Assembly: GCF_009914755.1 (NCBI RefSeq) | Contig: NC_060928.1 | Strand: one strand, 5' to 3' | DNA: 64,000 bases | DNA from: the human T2T-CHM13v2.0 reference genome, Homo sapiens | In this document: in pieces, positions 963 to 8,345 of the stretch | Layout of the letters: each line of letters opens with the position of its first letter | Numbering within the stretch: position 1 is the first letter of the stretch | Notes under the pieces: generated by a model | The model's database searches: none | What the model was told of the DNA's origin: nothing | What the model saw: the letters and a program-made list of their open reading frames with translations, nothing else | Translations under genes and position numbers: made by a program

Positions 963-2205
963 GAATTATAACTCTACAACTCAATAGCAAAAAGACAAAT
1001 AACCTTTTATAAATGGGCAAATGACCTGCATAGACATTTCTCCAGAGAAGACAAAAATGGTCATCAGGCATATGAGAAGACGCTCAACCTTACTAGAAAA
1101 TGCAAATCAAAATCAGGGAAATGCAAATCAAAACTACCAGAGGCCAGGCATGGTGGCTCATGCCTGTAATCCCTGCACTTTGAGAAGCTGAGGCAGGAGG
1201 GTCGCTTGAGTACCGGAGTTCAAGACTAGCCTGGGCAACTTAAGGAGACCCCATCTCTACAAAACAATGACAACAACAACAACAACACAATATTACTGCA
1301 CACTCTTTGAGAGTCTGAGGCAGGAGTATTGCTTAAGCCCAGGAGTACAAGACCAGCAATATTGCAGGTAACATAGTGAAATCCCATCTCTACAAACAAA
1401 CAAAAAACACAATGGGATATTACCTCACACCTTTTAGGATGGCTATTATTAAAAAGGCAAGAGATAACAAATATTGAGGGTGTGGAAAAAAGGTAGCTCC
1501 CTTGTACACTGCTGGTGGAAATGATGGTTGGTGCAGTCATTGTGGAAAACAGTATGGAAGTTTCTAAAGAAAATACAAATAGAGTTATCATATGACCTAG
1601 CAATTCTTCTTCTGCATATATACACAAAGGAAATGATATTATGAACTTGTAAAGACTCTCATATTCATTGTAGCATTATTCACAATAGCCAAGATATGGA
1701 AACAACCTACATGTGCGTTAAATTTGATGATATTGATAGATACATAGATAATTATGCAGCCTTAAAAGAGGAGAGCTTGCCATTTGTAACAACATAGGTA
1801 AAACTAGAAGACACTATGCTAAGAGAAATAAGTTTGACAGAAAAAGACTGACTGATCTCACTTGTATGTGGAATAAAAAAATGGATATATAGAAAGAGTA
1901 GAAAGGTAGTTACCAAGGAAGATGTATGCAGCAAAATGTACAAAGTTGCAATTCTGTCAGGTGAATAAGCCTGGAGATCTACTAGAGAGTATGAGGAATA
2001 TAGTTAATAATACTGCCAATTTGCTAAAAGAGTAGATTATAGTTACTCTTTACACATTCACACACACACAAAAATGCACAAGAAAGTGACTATGTGAGGT
2101 GATTGATATGTTAGTTTGCTTGACTAGTCATCACTTTACTATGCATATGTATATCAAAATATCATGTCATATACCTTAAATATATGCACTACATTTAAAA
2201 AATAT
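963..2205 (+). mobile_element. L1MA/MB-type 3' end, interrupted by Alu monomers
   Basis: aaatgcaaatcaaaactac, tacactgctggtggaaat, cacaatagccaagatatggaaacaacct and the terminal atatcaaaatatcatg..taccttaaatata are L1 3' hallmarks. Confidence 0.85.
1142..1407 (+). mobile_element. Two tandem Alu left-monomer/FLAM-like units
   Basis: ggccaggcatggtggctcatgcc...ccatctctacaaaa + (caa)n, then a second 5'-truncated unit ending ccatctctacaaacaaac. Confidence 0.8.
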
Positions 2206-2252
2206 ACATATAACTCTCACCATATGACTAGCAAAACCTCTGAGGACTAGGC

Positions 2253-2952
2253 TCTGAAATTTTTATCTTGCCCAAATTCCTACCTAAGGGGTCTGGGGAG
2301 TCATACCCTACAAACTATAAATTCTCATCAGACTGGTTTAATGGAACTCTGTGTATCATGACTTGCTTTCCAATCTGACTCTGGCATAACAAAGAAGAAA
2401 GTCAAAATATCTTACCATAAAACATATTTCTTTGCCATATTTTGAAATGGCCCTGTAAAACTGTCCTTTTTGGGGGAAATTTTGCATCTGTAAAGCACCT
2501 CTATTAACATAGCTAGATCTTTTTCTTCCAGGCCCTCCCAATCCTGAAGAGAATAACTAAGAGTCTAGCACCTTTTAAATGTCTCAATAGGAAACATTTG
2601 TCATCTATTCTCTATTCTAAGGGCAGCCACTATAAGACTTCAAAAGAAACTTGGCCTTGGCAATCTTTTATCTTAACCTGAAGGTTTCCTTTCTACGGAC
2701 ACCCCCACCCCGCAACAACCCGCTTTCCCACTTTGAGTTGTCCCGCCTTTCTGGACCAATCATATTTCTTAAACATATTCGATTGCTGTCTCATGCCTCC
2801 CTAAAATACATATAAAACTAAGCTGTGCCCTGACCACCTTGGGCACATGTTCTCAGGACCTCCTGAGGGCTGTGTCATGGGCCATGGTCACTCATATTTG
2901 GCTCAGAATAAATGTCAAAATATTCTACAGAGTCTGACTCTTTTTGTCAACA
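2253..2952 (+). mobile_element. ERV1 LTR, MER4-like, partial
   Basis: cccaaattcctacctaaggggtctggggagtca; ctgaccaccttgggcacatgttctcaggacctcctgagggctgtg; AATAAA; terminal ctctttttgtcaaca. Confidence 0.8.
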
Positions 2953-3269
2953 CCTCGCATATAAAATTTAAAAAATGAACCTTTATAAGATAATGGTAAC
3001 CAAAGTCACAAAAGCTAACAGCAGGCATTTTTCTAAATTACTCTTTCAATTATGTCACTCGGGTACTTTTACTCTGTGCATTTTACATGAGAACACTGAA
3101 TGTTAAAGAACCTGTCCAGGTTCATAATTCTAATAGTGGTGGTGTTGGGAATAAGCTTAGGTGAACTGATTTCAGAATACTTTAGAACAATTAGACTGTA
3201 TGACTTCTTATTATAGATAATGATAATGTAAAATTTCTTTTAAATTTAGGTAAAAAGCGCTATTACATC

Positions 3270-3717
3270 TTTCACTGGCGTCTGTGTGAAGAGAGCACCA
3301 AACAGGCTTTGTGTGAGCAATAAAGCTTTTTAATCACCTGGGTGCAGGCAGGCTGAGTCCGAAAAGAGAGTCAGTGAAGGGAGACAGGGGTGGGGCCATT
3401 TTATAGATGTGGGTAGATAGTGGAAAATTACAGTCAGAGGGGGTTGTTCTCTGGCGGGCAGGGGCGGGGTCACAAGGTGCTCATTGGGGGAGCTTTTGAG
3501 CCAGGATGAGCCAGGAGAAGGAATTTCACAAGGTGATGTCATCAGTTAAGGCAAGGACCAGCCATTTTCAGTTCTTTTGTGGTGGAATGTCATCAGTTAA
3601 GGCAGGAATGGCCATTTTCACTTCTTTTGTGATTCTTCACTTGCTTTGGGTTATCTGGACGTATATGTGCAGGTCACAGGGTATACGATGGCTTAGCTTG
3701 GGCTCAGAGGCCTGACA
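3270..3717 (-). mobile_element. HERV-H LTR7 solo LTR #1 (448 bp)
   Basis: Reverse strand begins TGTCAGGCCTCTGAGCCCAAGCTAAGCC and ends ...GTGAAA; TATAAAA (3399-3405, minus) and ATTAAA present; TSD acatc/aaatc (1 mismatch). Confidence 0.95.
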
Positions 3718-4045
3718 AAATCTGTTTTTGTTTGAATATATATAGTCTATGTTCCAGCCTTTCTAATGTCAGACAAAATTGAAATCTCCTTAAATTGATT
3801 ATAACAAAAGCAACAAAACCTCTGATTAATAAAGTTTTCCTTATAAATTATTTTATATCAGGATAAAACAAAGCGCCATTGAAATTTTTATGGGCCAAAG
3901 CTGGGATCTCAATCATTACATCTCCGGTTGCTAAGAAAATAATGAAAATGTATTTGAATAACTTTAAGGGATTAATAAAATATTTCTGGCTTTAGTGCTG
4001 ATATATATGATTTAGTAATGGCAATATATGAATATATGTGCTGAC

Positions 4046-4385
4046 TGTCAGGCCTCTGAGCCCAAGCTAAGCCATCATATCCCCTGTGACCTGCACATAC
4101 ACATCCAGATGGCCGGTTCCTGTCTTAACTGATGACATTCCACCACAAAAGAAGTGAAAATGGCCTGTTCCTGCCTTAACTGATGACATTGTCTTGTGAA
4201 ATTCCTTCTCTTGGCTCTTCCTGGCTCAAAAGCTCCCCTACTGAGCACCTTGTGACCCCCACTCTGCCCGCCAGAGATTCGCTGACTCTCTTTTCGGAGT
4301 CAGCCCGCCTGCACCCAGGTGATTAAAAGCTTTATTGCTCACACAAAGCCTGTTTGGTGGTCTCTTCACATGGACGCGCAAGAAA
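4046..4385 (+). mobile_element. HERV-H LTR7 solo LTR #2 (340 bp, ~60 bp internal deletion)
   Basis: tgtcaggcctctgagcccaagctaagcc...ggacgcgcaagaaa; perfect TSD ctgac (4041-4045 / 4386-4390). Confidence 0.95.
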
Positions 4386-4716
4386 CTGACTATTTAAAAA
4401 TTAATAGTGTACACAATGGTCTTTTTTTGGCTTTTTTTCCAGAAACTTCTGCATCTAAATTCAAATACTCTTCCTGCTCTCCAGTGGAAGTCAGTGAGCT
4501 GCTCTTGCTTCTGCCTGGGGCCAGTTCTTCTAACTTGTACCCAGGATCACTTCCCCTGTTCCCTCAAAAGAACATCTCTCCAGGCATTTCTCCTCTGTCT
4601 TTCACATCATCTTTTTTCCACTTCTGGGAATGATTCGCCTCCTCTTAGCAAATGGTGATTTTTCTTCTTTCTATTTCTACCCGATCTCTACTCAAATGCT
4701 ACCAAAGGTCCCACCC

Positions 4717-5535
4717 ATATTAGTTTCCTATGGCTGATGTAACAAATTACCACAAAGTTGATGGTTTAAAATAAACAAACAAAAAACCCTACAGTTTTAG
4801 TCTCTTGGATTTGTGGGTTAGAAATCCAAAGTGAGTTTCAAGATGTTAGCCGAATTGGGCTCTCTCTAGCAGTTCTAAGTGAATATCCCTTTCCTTGCCT
4901 TTTTCAGTTTCTAGAGCTGCATTCCTTGCATCCCTTGGCTTGTGGACTTTTCTTACCCAATCAAAATGAGCATCATGGCATTATATTTTAATTATCACAT
5001 TGCTTTCTTTTGGATGCCAAAATTCCCCTTGTTCCCCTAAGTGTCCTTGTGATTATACTTAATGTCAGGCCTCTGAGCCCAAGCCAAGCCATCATATCCC
5101 CGTGACCTGCATGTACACATCCAGATCTCCGGTTCCTGCCTTAACTGATGACATTCCACCACAAAAGAAGTGAAAATGGCCTGTTCCTGCCTTAACTGAT
5201 GACATTGTCTTGTGAAATTCCTTCTCCTGGCTCATCTTGGCTCAAAAGCTCCCCAACTGAGTACCTTGTGACCCCCACTCCTGCCTGCCAGAGAACAACC
5301 CCCCTTTCTCCTTTACCTACCCAAATCCTATAAAATGGCCCCACCCCTATCTCCCTTCGCCGACTCTCTTTTGGGACTCAGCCCGCCTGCACCCAAGTGA
5401 TTAAAAGCTTTATTGTTCACACAAAGCCTGTTTGGTGGTCTCTTCACAGGACGCGCATGAAACTTAATACCTATTTGGGTAATCTCGAATAATCTCCTCA
5501 TCTCAAGATCCTTAATTTAATGACATGTGCAATGC
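4717..5535 (-). mobile_element. MLT1 (C/D/E-like) MaLR LTR, split by LTR7 #3
   Basis: tattagtttcctatggctgatgtaacaaattaccacaaa at the start; resumes after the LTR7 with taatctcctcatctcaagatccttaatttaat. Confidence 0.75.
5063..5462 (+). mobile_element. HERV-H LTR7 solo LTR #3 (400 bp)
   Basis: tgtcaggcctctgagcccaagccaagcc...ggacgcgcatgaaa; TATAAAA at 5329-5335; perfect TSD cttaa (5058-5062 / 5463-5467). Confidence 0.95.
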
Positions 5536-5559
5536 TTTCTGAGTGTGCCAGCTCCCTGG

Positions 5560-6200
5560 ATGCTCTCTTGCACACCAACCTCAGCTTTTGCATCTATTAC
5601 TTCCTTTAACCTGAATGCTCTCTTCTAGAAAACCACTAGGCTCACTCATTCACTTTCCTTTTATCTCTTCCACAATGTTGCATTATTAGAGAGTTCCCAT
5701 AGCAAATAACAGAATATGATAACACCTCCCCCATTTCCTTTATTTTCCTGACCTAGCTTTGTCTTTCCTCTGTAGCATGATAATCCCCCAACATGTAATT
5801 TTTTTTTTTTTTTTTGAGACAGTCTCACTCTGTCGCCCAGGCTGGAGTGCAGTGGCATGATCTCAGCTCACTGCAACCTCCGCTCCCAGGTTCAAGTGAT
5901 TCTCGTGCCTCAGCTTCCCGAGTAGCTGGGATTACAGGCACCCACCTCCATACCTGGCTAATTTTTTGTATTTTTAGTAGAGACGGAGTTTCACCATGTC
6001 AGCCAGGATGGTCTTGATCTCCTGACCTCATGATCTTCCTGCCTCAGCCTCCCAAAGTGTTGGGATTACAGGCATGAGTCACCGTGCTCGGCTAACATGT
6101 AAATATTTTTTGTCTTTCTCCACTATACTATGAGCTCCATGAAGACAAATAGAGTACTGGACAAATTTTATGTCCAGAAAAGAGCTCAGCATTTGAGTAA
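5560..6200 (+). mobile_element. L2 fragment interrupted by Alu
   Basis: cctgaatgctctcttct...ggctcactcattcactt and ctatgagctccatgaagaca resemble the L2 3' region. Confidence 0.5.
5799..6093 (-). mobile_element. Alu (AluS)
   Basis: Antisense dimer with T tail; TSD aacatgtaa. Confidence 0.95.
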
Positions 6201-7373: not shown

Positions 7374-8345
7374 TCTTATGGGATCTTTTGAGTGTCAATT
7401 TTCTGGCTGAAAACCTGTGGCCAGTGGCACCTTTGCCTGAGTTCTTGTCCTGCGTCCAGGAAGCACGAGGTATGCAGACAAGTGAAGGGGGAACAAGGCA
7501 AAGATGAGCTTTATTAAGTGTTAGAACAGCTCAGAGGAGACCTACAGTGGGTAGCTCCCCTCTGTAAGCAGGTCATTCCATGGAGTGTTCACCTCTCAGC
7601 AGACAGGAGGCCCTTGAGAAGGTAGCTCCTCTCTGCCTTCAGTTGCCTGATGTCTGCAGCTCTCAGCAGAGAGTAGGCACTGGAGAGAGTGGCTTCTCTC
7701 TGCTGGCAGGTCATCCCATCATCTGTGCAGCTCTCAGCAAAGAAGGTAATTCCTTTCTGCAGCTGGCTGTCCCATCACCTCCAGCTTTCAGCAGATAGGG
7801 TACATCCTCTCTGCAGCTGTTCTTCCCTTCCTCTCTGTCCTCTTCATTCTCTGCCCTGCCCTGGCTGAGCTCGGGCTTTAATGGGTCTCAGAGTGAAGAA
7901 GTGCATGCTGAATGGCTCATGGGCAGCCATGGTTGGGCCCAGAGAAAAGCACCATGAGTTCCCCCTCCAGCCCACAGGACTGGCATCTCAGCCCCCAGGC
8001 TTCAGGCCTGCCCTGGGCCTGAAGGTGAGGCTTCACTAGGGACCCGCCCCCTTCCACCTAGGAGCCTGTCTGCCTCCCAGAGTCATCCATGGCACACAGG
8101 CTGCTGGCACCAAGGGGCACCTGCAGGACAGCACCTGGCTGCCCTCAGCACCCCCCGTTAGGTTCCCCTCCTATGCTCCTTGACACCCAAAGTACAGAGA
8201 GGGCTGAGGCAGCAGAAGGCTGGCATATCAACACTGCCCCTAGTGTGTGCACACCCAGCTGGGCTGAAACAGCACCTGGGCTGAGCCTCAACCTCACTTC
8301 GATATTGGAGCAGAACCAGGAGTGGGGGCAGAGAAAAGCAAGTGG
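7374..8345 (-). mobile_element. MER52-like ERV1 LTR, truncated
   Basis: gggatcttttgagtgtc..ttttctggctgaaaacctgtggcc..gttcttgtcctgcgtccaggaa; internal cagctctcagcagagag repeats; GC-rich. Confidence 0.8.

What the first reader, a model, noticed from the sequence alone, without database searches (positions are those of the whole stretch)
3270..5462. Three independent HERV-H LTR7 solo LTRs within 2.2 kb: candidate integration hotspot and composite pluripotency enhancer/promoter
Seen: LTR7 copies at 3270-3717 (-), 4046-4385 (+) and 5063-5462 (+). Each has its own 5-bp TSD (acatc/aaatc, ctgac/ctgac, cttaa/cttaa), unrelated flanks and no viral internal sequence between them. They differ in structure: #1 has an extra U3 block, #2 a ~60 bp deletion, and #3 lacks the gactgtaattt stretch. 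#3 sits inside an older MLT1. Established: solo LTRs with 5-bp TSDs arise by proviral integration followed by LTR-LTR recombination; LTR7 is a low-to-moderate copy family that acts as a promoter/enhancer in pluripotent cells. Inference: three separate integrations and excisions happened at one spot, which is far denser than random placement predicts. This suggests a site attractive to HERV-H in the early embryo or germline, possibly because an active LTR recruits further integrations, and a stacked LTR7 regulatory module.
Basis: partly seen in the sequence, partly recalled or inferred. Interest (0 to 1): 0.85.

Follow-up and report, generated by a model that had tools for sequence, protein, structure and literature searches.

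The report
Three solo HERV-H LTRs close together
Three remnants of separate ancient retrovirus insertions sit within 2.2 kb of a human chromosome 4 gene desert; they are known, annotated elements, and their closeness looks like the extreme case of a general tendency of this virus family to land near its own earlier copies.

Summary
Three complete solo LTR7 (HERV-H) LTRs lie at 3270-3717(-), 4046-4385(+) and 5063-5462(+). Each has its own 5-bp target-site duplication (4/5, 5/5, 5/5), unrelated single-copy flanks and no proviral DNA between them.

They are not copies of each other. Copy 1 is an older mosaic of 7o and 7u1 types. Copies 2 and 3 are separate tips of the 7d clade.

All three are already listed, in hg38, in the supplements of Carter et al. 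2022. That table marks copy 1 with NANOG, H3K4me1 and H3K27ac in ESC but no RNA. None is the ESC-promoter type 7up.

Uniform placement predicts 0.006-0.009 such triples per genome. But in a complete 400-Mb sample, independent HERV-H insertions lie within 2.5 kb of each other about 11 times too often (3 against 0.26 expected) and within 8 kb about 6 times too often (5 against 0.82). With that clustering, about one triple per genome is expected.

So the locus is real but ordinary in kind. The hotspot idea survives as a family-wide tendency rather than a special site, and its mechanism is inferred, not shown.

The parts
3270..3717 (-). Copy 1: a solo LTR7, 448 bp. It is an older mosaic with a 7o-like sequence background plus the duplicated U3 block 2b typical of 7u1/7up. 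In hg38 it is chr4:30148804-30149243.
   Evidence: the best non-self genomic matches are only 91-93% identical (5 of 39), and the other 34 are 88-90%; it sits in a starred 9-row clade with an end branch of 0.067. Carter et al. place it in 7o by tree and in LTR7u1 by remasking, with NANOG, H3K4me1 and H3K27ac = 1 and RNA = 0; comparison by eye with the published subfamily alignment.
3265..3269 (.). Left target-site duplication of copy 1 (acatc)
   Evidence: It matches aaatc at 3718-3722 in 4 of 5 bases. One mismatch is plausible given the age of the copy.
3718..3722 (.). Right target-site duplication of copy 1 (aaatc)
3612..3649 (-). Extra 38-bp U3 block of copy 1, absent from copies 2 and 3. 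It is part of the 2a/2b duplication. The second unit carries the 8-bp SOX2/3-associated motif with one mismatch.
   Evidence: alignment columns 69-106. (the published description of block 2b and of the 8-bp motif, compared by eye).
3723..4040 (.). Single-copy host DNA between the facing U3 ends of copies 1 and 2; no proviral sequence
   Evidence: no other genomic match. (no match to proviral flanks in the held loci).
4046..4385 (+). Copy 2: a solo LTR7 of 7d type, 340 bp, with a private internal deletion. In hg38 it is chr4:30149572-30149905.
   Evidence: bases 1-232 are 97-98% identical to 39 other places; end branch 0.028 in the 7d-type clade; remasked both as LTR7o (361) and as LTR7d2 (232). 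It lies inside the RefSeq enhancer row 3911-4534 (hub annotation).
4041..4045 (.). Left TSD of copy 2 (ctgac)
   Evidence: 5 of 5 with 4386-4390
4386..4390 (.). Right TSD of copy 2 (ctgac)
4277..4278 (+). Junction of copy 2's private deletion of about 60-70 bp, which removes the U3 TATA-box region
   Evidence: all 39 other scored places match in two pieces (38 splitting at or near query base 232/233, one with only a 45-base second piece), with roughly 60-70 further bases between the pieces at the three places where I compared the coordinates..
4391..5057 (.). Host DNA between copies 2 and 3.
   Evidence: only two short hits (57 and 34 bases) to host flanks of two unrelated loci (L005, L059)..
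5063..5462 (+). Copy 3: a solo LTR7 of 7d1 type, 400 bp. In hg38 it is chr4:30150590-30150985.
   Evidence: best non-self match 96%. (end branch 0.031). (LTR7d1 solo in Carter supplementary file 2). It is absent from their regulatory table.
5058..5062 (.). Left TSD of copy 3 (cttaa)
   Evidence: 5 of 5 with 5463-5467
5463..5467 (.). Right TSD of copy 3 (cttaa)

Best explanation
Three separate germline integrations of HERV-H hit the same 2.2 kb at different times. Copy 1 came first, in the old wave of the family. Copies 2 and 3 came later, in the 7d wave. Each provirus then collapsed to a solo LTR by recombination between its two LTRs.

Their closeness is the extreme tail of a kb-scale clustering that the whole family shows, and no locus-specific mechanism is needed to explain it. 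The most likely cause of that clustering is inferred, not shown. Like other gammaretrovirus-type elements, HERV-H would have integrated preferentially into active enhancer or promoter chromatin of germline-competent cells. A resident LTR7 is itself such chromatin, so older copies raise the local odds of new hits.

Today the locus behaves at most as a weak, enhancer-marked region in ESC, not as a HERV-H promoter.
For: Independence:
- The three copies have distinct 5-bp TSDs and unrelated single-copy flanks.
- Copies 2 and 3 are 94.7% identical over 338 columns, share 0 rare variants, and rank 23rd-24th of 30 in each other's similarity lists.
- They are separate tips of a 34-row clade, while copy 1 lies in another, starred clade.

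Order of events:
- End branches are 0.067 for copy 1 against 0.028 and 0.031 for copies 2 and 3.
- Published subfamily ages are 25-40 My for 7o and mostly 14-20 My for 7d1/2.

Family membership:
- The LTR 5' end matches 3187 genomic places with at most 2 mismatches, against 0 for the control pattern.
- Many matches are same-strand pairs 5.1-6 kb apart, with primer-binding and polypurine tracts beside the LTRs.

Family-wide clustering:
- The sample is 249 exact 5' ends in the first 400 Mb, merged to 203 loci.
- After checking structure and TSDs, 3 independent neighbour pairs lie within 2.5 kb against 0.26 expected (P = 0.0024), and 5 within 8 kb against 0.82 expected (P = 0.0016).
- A 5-Mb local-density null gives the same expectation.
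- Further independent pairs exist. On chrX, two solo LTRs each have a perfect TSD. On chr21p, a 7up1 plus 7d1 pair appears in the published lists.
- The partners usually belong to different subfamilies, that is, different times.

Established knowledge: MLV-type integrases tether to BET proteins at active enhancers and promoters (abstracts of PMC4121521 and PMC6974304).
Against: - The clustering estimate rests on few events (3 and 5), with confidence intervals of 2.4-34 and 2.0-14. It covers 13% of the genome and only LTRs whose first 22 bases are intact.
- I merged same-strand neighbours under 9 kb as proviruses without checking each one.
- Nothing here shows that HERV-H integrase used BET or any other tether, or that copy 1 was active chromatin when copies 2 and 3 arrived.
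- Of 57 other LTR7 places with 1.5-kb flanks, only 1 had an independent neighbour, against 0.17 expected. That is not significant on its own.
- One apparent pair in that flank sample (L004) and one in the 400-Mb sample (C1:34.99 Mb) proved to be single rearranged elements. Unverified pairs elsewhere may be the same.
- No ape or monkey genome was available to order the insertions directly.
Confidence: 0.55

Rival explanations
1. Site-intrinsic spot. The 2-8 kb region was open or permissive chromatin, or simply tolerant of insertions, for reasons unrelated to LTR7. Examples are an older enhancer or the unrelated LTR just upstream. Such a region would collect or retain HERV-H hits independently of resident copies.
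For: RefSeq enhancer rows at 2338-2877 and 7410-8007 (hub annotation) lie outside the LTR7 copies. An unrelated LTR-like element sits at about 2200-2960. The locus is a gene desert with no gene within 100 kb (hub annotation), so purifying selection is weak.
Against: Retention bias should act over tens of kb to Mb. Yet the 64-kb window holds only these three copies, and the 5-Mb local density does not raise the expectation in the sample. The excess falls from 6-11 times at 8 kb or less to about 2 times at 100 kb. The enhancer rows have no cell type or date attached here.
Confidence: 0.2
2. Coincidence. Placement is near random and this is simply the densest spot found after looking at the whole genome.
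For: One such triple is a single event found post hoc. The flank sample alone (1 of 57) is compatible with uniform placement.
Against: The uniform expectation is 0.006-0.009 triples per genome, or 0.0015 if only solo LTRs are counted. The independent sample shows a significant excess of close pairs (P about 0.002).
Confidence: 0.15
3. Selected composite enhancer. The three LTRs were retained together because they jointly act as a regulatory module in pluripotent or early-embryo cells.
For: Copy 1 carries NANOG, H3K4me1 and H3K27ac calls in ESC. RefSeq's enhancer row covers copy 2 (hub annotation). Copy 1 keeps a 7-of-8 version of the SOX2/3-associated motif.
Against: There is no RNA, KLF4, SOX2, OCT4, MED1 or H3K4me3 call on copy 1. 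H3K27ac marks 48% of non-7up LTR7, and NANOG marks 13-85% depending on subfamily. Copies 2 and 3 are the weak 7d type, whose consensus has low reporter activity, and copy 2 lost its TATA region. No gene lies within 100 kb. The copies have diverged at the rate of their clade mates, with no sign of constraint.
Confidence: 0.07
4. DNA-level artefact: local duplication, gene conversion, rearrangement of one provirus, or misassembly.
For: Rearranged single elements that mimic pairs do exist elsewhere: L004 and C1:34.99 Mb.
Against: Here each LTR is complete with its own TSD, and the flanks are unrelated. Copies 2 and 3 are not each other's closest relatives and share no rare variants. The same spacing is found in hg38 and in T2T-CHM13.
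Confidence: 0.02

Closest known systems
Other close pairs of independent HERV-H insertions in the same genome: chrX 32.70 Mb (T2T), chr1 212.15 Mb, chr2 64.08 Mb, chr1 221.2 Mb, and chr21p in hg38
   Same: These are separate TSD-flanked LTR7 or HERV-H elements 0.5-1.5 kb apart, usually of different subfamilies and so of different ages (chr21p).
   Different: Those loci hold two integration events, often with a provirus still present. This locus holds three, all reduced to solo LTRs. I found no other three-event cluster, but my lists cover only 13% of the genome completely.
Integration clusters of MLV-type gammaretroviruses at active enhancers and promoters (integrase bound to BET proteins)
   Same: Repeated independent hits within a few kb of active regulatory chromatin. 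HERV-H is a class I, gamma-like ERV (established knowledge). MLV targeting is taken from the abstracts of PMC4121521 and PMC6974304.
   Different: MLV clusters are seen in infected cell populations within days, whereas these are fixed germline insertions millions of years apart. MLV makes 4-bp duplications (recalled), whereas every HERV-H element checked here has 5 bp. No tether is known for HERV-H, and none was tested.
LTR7up-driven HERV-H loci that act as promoters in human ESC (Carter et al. 2022)
   Same: The same LTR family. Copy 1 shares the duplicated block 2b and NANOG occupancy.
   Different: None of the three is 7up. There is no RNA, KLF4, SOX2 or H3K4me3 on copy 1. Copies 2 and 3 lack block 2b.

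Membership tests
LTR7 / HERV-H long terminal repeat | Full-length similarity to the genomic LTR7 population | tested here: met
   Copy 3 is 92-96% identical to 39 scored places, copy 1 is 88-93%, and copy 2 is 97-98% over bases 1-232. First-look candidates numbered 2690-2981 per query. The shared 5' end occurs 3187 times, against 0 for the control.
LTR7 / HERV-H long terminal repeat | LTRs of the same clades flank proviruses of about 5-6 kb, with a primer-binding site after the 5' LTR and a polypurine tract before the 3' LTR | tested here: met
   Of the 52 intervals between adjacent anchors shorter than 12 kb, 46 are same-strand, mostly 4.4-8.4 kb. Primer-binding-site-like and polypurine stretches lie beside LTRs in L004, L061-L066. 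That the primer-binding site is complementary to tRNA-His is recalled, not tested.
LTR7 / HERV-H long terminal repeat | Curated annotation as LTR7 | tested here: met
   The supplements of Carter et al. 2022 list all three in hg38: copy 1 as 7o/LTR7u1, copy 2 as LTR7o/LTR7d2, copy 3 as LTR7d1.
Solo LTR made by LTR-LTR recombination of a provirus | One complete LTR, no internal sequence, flanked by a target-site duplication of the family's length | tested here: met
   TSDs are 5/5 for copies 2 and 3 and 4/5 for copy 1. No proviral DNA lies between or beside them. TSDs of 5 bp were seen at 7 other HERV-H elements. The recombination step itself is inferred.
LTR7up (ESC-active promoter subfamily) | Placement in the 7up clade; block 2b with an intact 8-bp SOX2/3 motif; KLF4 and NANOG binding, H3K4me3 and RNA in ESC | tested here: not met
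   Copy 1 is 7o by tree and 7u1 by remasking. Its motif matches 7 of 8 bases. KLF4, SOX2, H3K4me3 and RNA are all 0, and only NANOG, H3K4me1 and H3K27ac are 1. Copies 2 and 3 lack block 2b.
Retroviral integration hotspot (locus-specific) | More independent insertions than an appropriate null predicts for this family | tested here: inconclusive
   Against uniform placement the test is met, with 0.006-0.009 triples expected. Against the family's own short-range clustering (6-11 times), about 0.2-1.8 triples are expected, so the locus is not clearly exceptional.
Retroviral integration hotspot (locus-specific) | Empty-site and occupied states in related species that show repeated hits over time | not testable with these tools
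   No primate genomes are held. The order of events was inferred only from branch lengths and published subfamily ages.

The most novel reading that the evidence does not exclude
HERV-H insertions attract later HERV-H insertions. A resident LTR7 that is active chromatin in germline-competent cells would raise the local integration rate of later waves of the same family by about ten times within a few kb. That would give the family-wide excess of close, different-aged neighbours seen in the 400-Mb sample. This chr4 locus, with three events and the oldest first, would be its most extreme product. It would be a self-reinforcing targeting rule for an endogenous retrovirus, readable from fossil insertions.
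Probability: 0.3. Interest if true: 0.55.

Novelty: new member of a known kind. Interest (0 to 1): 0.3.

Why it matters
As a locus it matters little: three known, already annotated solo LTRs in a gene desert, with ordinary enhancer-type marks on one of them. The wider lead is more useful. If the 6-11-fold excess of close, independently integrated HERV-H neighbours holds genome-wide, fossil insertions would record the integration preference of an extinct human retrovirus. They would also suggest that its own LTRs shaped where later copies landed. That bears on how HERV-H regulatory elements came to be distributed near each other in the early-embryo genome.

Tried and rejected
- A degenerate upstream-base pattern got no answer from the machine. 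I ran the single-base patterns instead.
- Searching the genome with the whole 2.2-kb cluster to pull out other multi-LTR places only returned the best single-LTR matches.
- Reading all 24 parts of Carter supplementary file 2, which holds 3354 loci, would have given the full nearest-neighbour test.
- Two literature searches for reports of LTR7 or HERV-H spatial clustering or integration hotspots showed nothing relevant among the 15 and 12 papers listed (of 240 and 103 that held the terms), judged from their titles and the starts of their abstracts. Passages of PMC9483895 and PMC4921805 held nothing on it either.
- Local duplication and gene conversion between copies 2 and 3 were considered and rejected.
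- A remnant of one provirus was considered and rejected.
- Two apparent pairs elsewhere were rejected as independent events because each is a single rearranged element.
Full report
**What is there.** The window is human chr4 (T2T) 30,132,001-30,196,000, as given by the hub. Reading 2700-6200 shows three elements. Each begins with the same roughly 70 bases and ends with the same roughly 110 bases.
- Copy 1: 3270-3717 on the minus strand, 448 bp.
- Copy 2: 4046-4385 on the plus strand, 340 bp.
- Copy 3: 5063-5462 on the plus strand, 400 bp.

Each is bracketed by a 5-bp direct repeat: acatc/aaatc (4 of 5), ctgac/ctgac and cttaa/cttaa. The chance of a 5/5 match is 0.001 and of at least 4/5 is 0.016. 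The 22-base 5' end and a 29-base 3' motif each occur three times in the 64-kb window and in none of 100 shuffles. Copies 1 and 2 face each other, U3 to U3, 328 bp apart. Copy 3 follows copy 2 after 677 bp.

**Family.** The 5' 22-mer occurs 3187 times in the genome with up to two mismatches, and the reversed control pattern occurs 0 times. Each copy used as a query finds 2690-2981 first-look candidates, of which 40 were scored. Many matches are same-strand pairs 5.1-6.0 kb apart. In the loci I fetched, LTRs of the same clades are followed by a primer-binding-site-like stretch or preceded by a polypurine tract. These are therefore LTRs of a provirus of about 5.5 kb, as expected for HERV-H. That the primer-binding site pairs with tRNA-His is my recollection and was not tested.

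The supplements of Carter et al. 2022 (eLife, PMC8912925) list the locus in hg38, at a constant offset of +13,527 from T2T. From the main text I read sections 5-9, 11, 30 and 39. From supplementary file 1 I read part 1; from file 2, parts 1 and 8; and file 7 in full. I also searched passages across all the supplements. Their entries for this locus are:
- Copy 1 is chr4:30148804-30149243. It is '7o' in their tree and 'LTR7u1' after remasking.
- Copy 2 is chr4:30149572-30149905, called LTR7o. Its first 232 bp are also called LTR7d2.
- Copy 3 is chr4:30150590-30150985, called LTR7d1 solo.

The alignment row printed for copy 1 reads the same as my copy 1 over the stretch shown (by eye). The identical spacing in two assemblies argues against misassembly.

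**Anatomy of the three copies.** I compared them by eye with the published subfamily alignment.
- Copy 1 has the point differences of the old 7o/7bc types. It also has the duplicated U3 block ('2b') and the short duplication shared by 7u1/7up, which explains why the tree and the remasking disagree. Its version of the 8-bp motif that Carter et al. tie to SOX2/3 binding has one mismatch.
- Copies 2 and 3 have the 7d architecture.
- Copy 2's deletion of about 60-70 bp is private. All 39 other scored places match it in two pieces, 38 of them splitting at or near query base 232/233 and one with only a 45-base second piece; at the three places where I compared the coordinates, 60-70 further bases lie between the pieces. 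The deletion removes the TATA region.
- Copy 3's missing 9 bp is also missing in the relatives L004 and L010.

**Independence.** The DNA between and beside the copies has no other match in the genome, apart from a 57-base piece of an older repeat. It does not match the proviral internal DNA next to LTRs in my 64 non-self loci, and the four flanks do not match each other.

I built a maximum-likelihood tree of 67 natural copies: the three window copies, the central LTR of each of 58 loci, and six further LTRs from L004, L061 and L062.
- Copies 2 and 3 are separate tips of an unresolved 34-row clade (support 92/98), with end branches of 0.028 and 0.031.
- Copy 1 lies in a different, starred 9-row clade (97/94), with an end branch of 0.067.
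- One long branch (L061b, a different LTR7 type) was left in. The bootstrap had not fully settled, so the support values are rough.

Copies 2 and 3 are 94.7% identical over 338 columns, share no rare variant, and rank 23rd and 24th of 30 in each other's similarity lists. Local duplication and gene conversion are therefore rejected.

Copy 1's best genomic relatives are only 91-93% identical (5 of 39), and the other 34 are 88-90%. Published ages are 25-40 My for 7o and mostly 14-20 My for 7d1/2. Together these indicate that copy 1 arrived first and that copies 2 and 3 arrived many millions of years later, 328 bp and 1345 bp from it. This order is inferred, because no primate genome was available.

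**Is it more than chance?** Uniform placement predicts 0.006-0.009 triples spanning 2193 bp or less per genome, using 2861-3354 loci or 3187 LTR ends. Counting solo LTRs only, it predicts 0.0015. To see whether uniform placement is the right null, I listed every exact match of the 5' 22-mer, split by the preceding base. The counts were A 805, C 456, G 354 and T 318, 1933 in all. Only the first 100 of each list are printed, so the lists are complete for contig 1 and for contig 2 up to 151.77 Mb. That is 400 Mb holding 249 ends.

I merged same-strand neighbours under 9 kb as proviruses, which gave 203 loci. This step is conservative, but I did not check each merge. Six neighbour pairs of different loci then lay within 8 kb, against 0.82 expected. 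A null using the local density in 5-Mb windows gave 0.83. I fetched all six.
- Five are two independent integrations:
  - C1:212.15 Mb holds a solo LTR with TSD gtagg inside an Alu, 1283 bp from a 2.75-kb provirus with TSD accat.
  - C2:64.08 Mb holds a solo LTR with TSD aggag, nested in an older provirus 537 bp from its LTR.
  - C1:221.2 Mb holds two proviruses tail to tail, 1443 bp apart.
  - C1:228.33 Mb and C2:34.80 Mb hold pairs with gaps of 4.3 and 4.9 kb.
- The sixth, at C1:34.99 Mb, is a single rearranged element whose flanks are reverse complements of each other.

So 3 independent pairs lie within 2.5 kb against 0.26 expected (P = 0.0024; ratio 11.5, 95% CI 2.4-34). Five lie within 8 kb against 0.82 expected (P = 0.0016; ratio 6.1, CI 2.0-14). 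The raw excess was about 5 times at 20 kb and 2 times at 100 kb.

Separately, of 57 other LTR7 places held with 1.5-kb flanks, one has an independent second solo LTR. This is the chrX pair at 32.70 Mb, where both LTRs have perfect TSDs. One more (L004) is a palindromic rearrangement of a single element. Uniform placement predicts 0.17 such neighbours. The published lists also show a 7up1 solo and a 7d1 solo about 600 bp apart on chr21p, present in five segmental-duplication copies.

If the uniform expectation is multiplied by the square to the cube of a 6-fold clustering factor, about 0.2-1.8 triples per genome are expected. The chr4 triple is then about what the family's own behaviour predicts. 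It is the densest case I saw, but it is not an outlier that needs its own explanation. These numbers rest on few events, on 13% of the genome, and on LTRs with an intact 5' end.

**Mechanism.** Shown: three independent insertions of different ages, and a family-wide, kb-scale excess of independent neighbours, often of different subfamilies, that Mb-scale density does not explain.

Inferred: the excess reflects where the virus integrated rather than where copies survived, because retention bias should act over much longer distances. The best-known model is the MLV-type integrase, which binds BET proteins and so lands at active enhancers and promoters (abstracts of PMC4121521 and PMC6974304, seen in the listing). 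HERV-H LTRs are active chromatin in early-embryo cells (Carter et al., abstract and section 7), and germline insertions must arise in such cells. Resident copies could therefore raise the local hit rate.

I cannot separate this self-attraction from a site that was open chromatin for its own reasons. RefSeq enhancer rows at 2338-2877 and 7410-8007 (hub annotation) and an unrelated LTR-like element at about 2200-2960 lie next to the cluster.

**Regulatory claim.** In the ESC table of Carter et al., copy 1 has NANOG, H3K4me1 and H3K27ac = 1. It has 0 for RNA, GRO-seq, chimeric transcript, KAP1, OCT4, MED1, KLF4, FOXA1, FOXP1, SMAD1, SOX2, TCF4, H3K4me3 and H3K9me3. Such marks are common. H3K27ac is found on 48% of non-7up LTR7, and NANOG on 13% of 7o, 85% of 7u1, 32% of 7d1 and 45% of 7d2. 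High RNA is largely confined to 7up. The 7d consensus was a weak promoter in their reporter assay.

Copies 2 and 3 are not in that table. The only evidence for copy 2 is that the RefSeq enhancer row 3911-4534 contains it, and I could not see what assay or cell type that row rests on. A weak enhancer-like state is plausible. A stacked pluripotency promoter is not supported.

**Novelty.** The elements and their subfamilies are in print. I found no description of this cluster, or of short-range clustering of HERV-H, among the 15 and 12 papers listed by two full-text searches (of 240 and 103 that held the terms), judged from their titles and the starts of their abstracts, or in the passages of two papers I opened. 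Per-locus primate ages and the unread parts of the supplements might bear on this. The locus is a new, extreme member of a known kind: repeated retroviral hits at one spot. The family-wide excess is the part worth following up.

Noticed in passing
window 2200-2960: An LTR-like element unrelated to LTR7, with CCAAT, TATAAA and AATAAA motifs and ending ...tttgtcaaca. It lies just upstream of copy 1 and overlaps the RefSeq enhancer row 2338-2877. Its family was not identified because no repeat library was available.
   Followed up: no
window 5790-6117: An Alu element with a long poly-T head (minus orientation), flanked by aacatgtaa(t/a) direct repeats. It is inserted about 330 bp after copy 3.
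   Followed up: no
L004:988-1902 (G000 C12:29147088-29148002): A palindromic HERV-H remnant. A 5' LTR plus primer-binding site and about 70 bp of leader is joined head-on to an inverted primer-binding site and LTR. The whole is flanked by one 5-bp repeat (ggtat) and sits inside an L1-like sequence. The published table splits it into a 'truncated 7d2' and a 'solo 7d1'.
   Followed up: partly
L063 (G000 C1:34994400-35001200): A minus-strand provirus whose far end is a 44-bp inverted LTR start. The two host flanks (gtaac and gttac) are reverse complements of each other, which suggests an inversion within a single insertion.
   Followed up: partly
G000 C2:185248313(+) and 185248878(-): Two exact LTR7 5' ends face each other only 587 bp apart from outer edge to outer edge. 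Two full LTRs would overlap, so this is probably another inverted partial duplication. It lies outside the complete sample and was not fetched.
   Followed up: no
hg38 chr21:5.60, 6.22, 7.10, 7.48 and 7.66 Mb (Carter supplementary files 1 and 2): A 7up1 solo LTR and a 7d1 solo LTR about 600 bp apart recur five times on chr21p, evidently carried by a segmental duplication. All five 7up1 copies have no regulatory calls.
   Followed up: no
genome-wide: The base before exact LTR7 5' ends is A in 805 of 1933 cases (C 456, G 354, T 318). This fits 3' LTRs, which are preceded by the last A of the polypurine tract. The preceding base is therefore a rough marker of proviral 3' LTRs against 5' or solo LTRs.
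   Followed up: partly
window 3270-3717 (copy 1): Copy 1 and its 8 clade mates combine 7o-type point differences with the 2b duplication of 7u1/7up. The published tree and the remasking therefore give different names. They may represent an intermediate or a recombinant between the old and young lineages.
   Followed up: partly
G000 C3:46260661-46573131: Four exact LTR7 5' ends of one upstream-base class lie within 312 kb on contig 3, a regionally dense patch.
   Followed up: no
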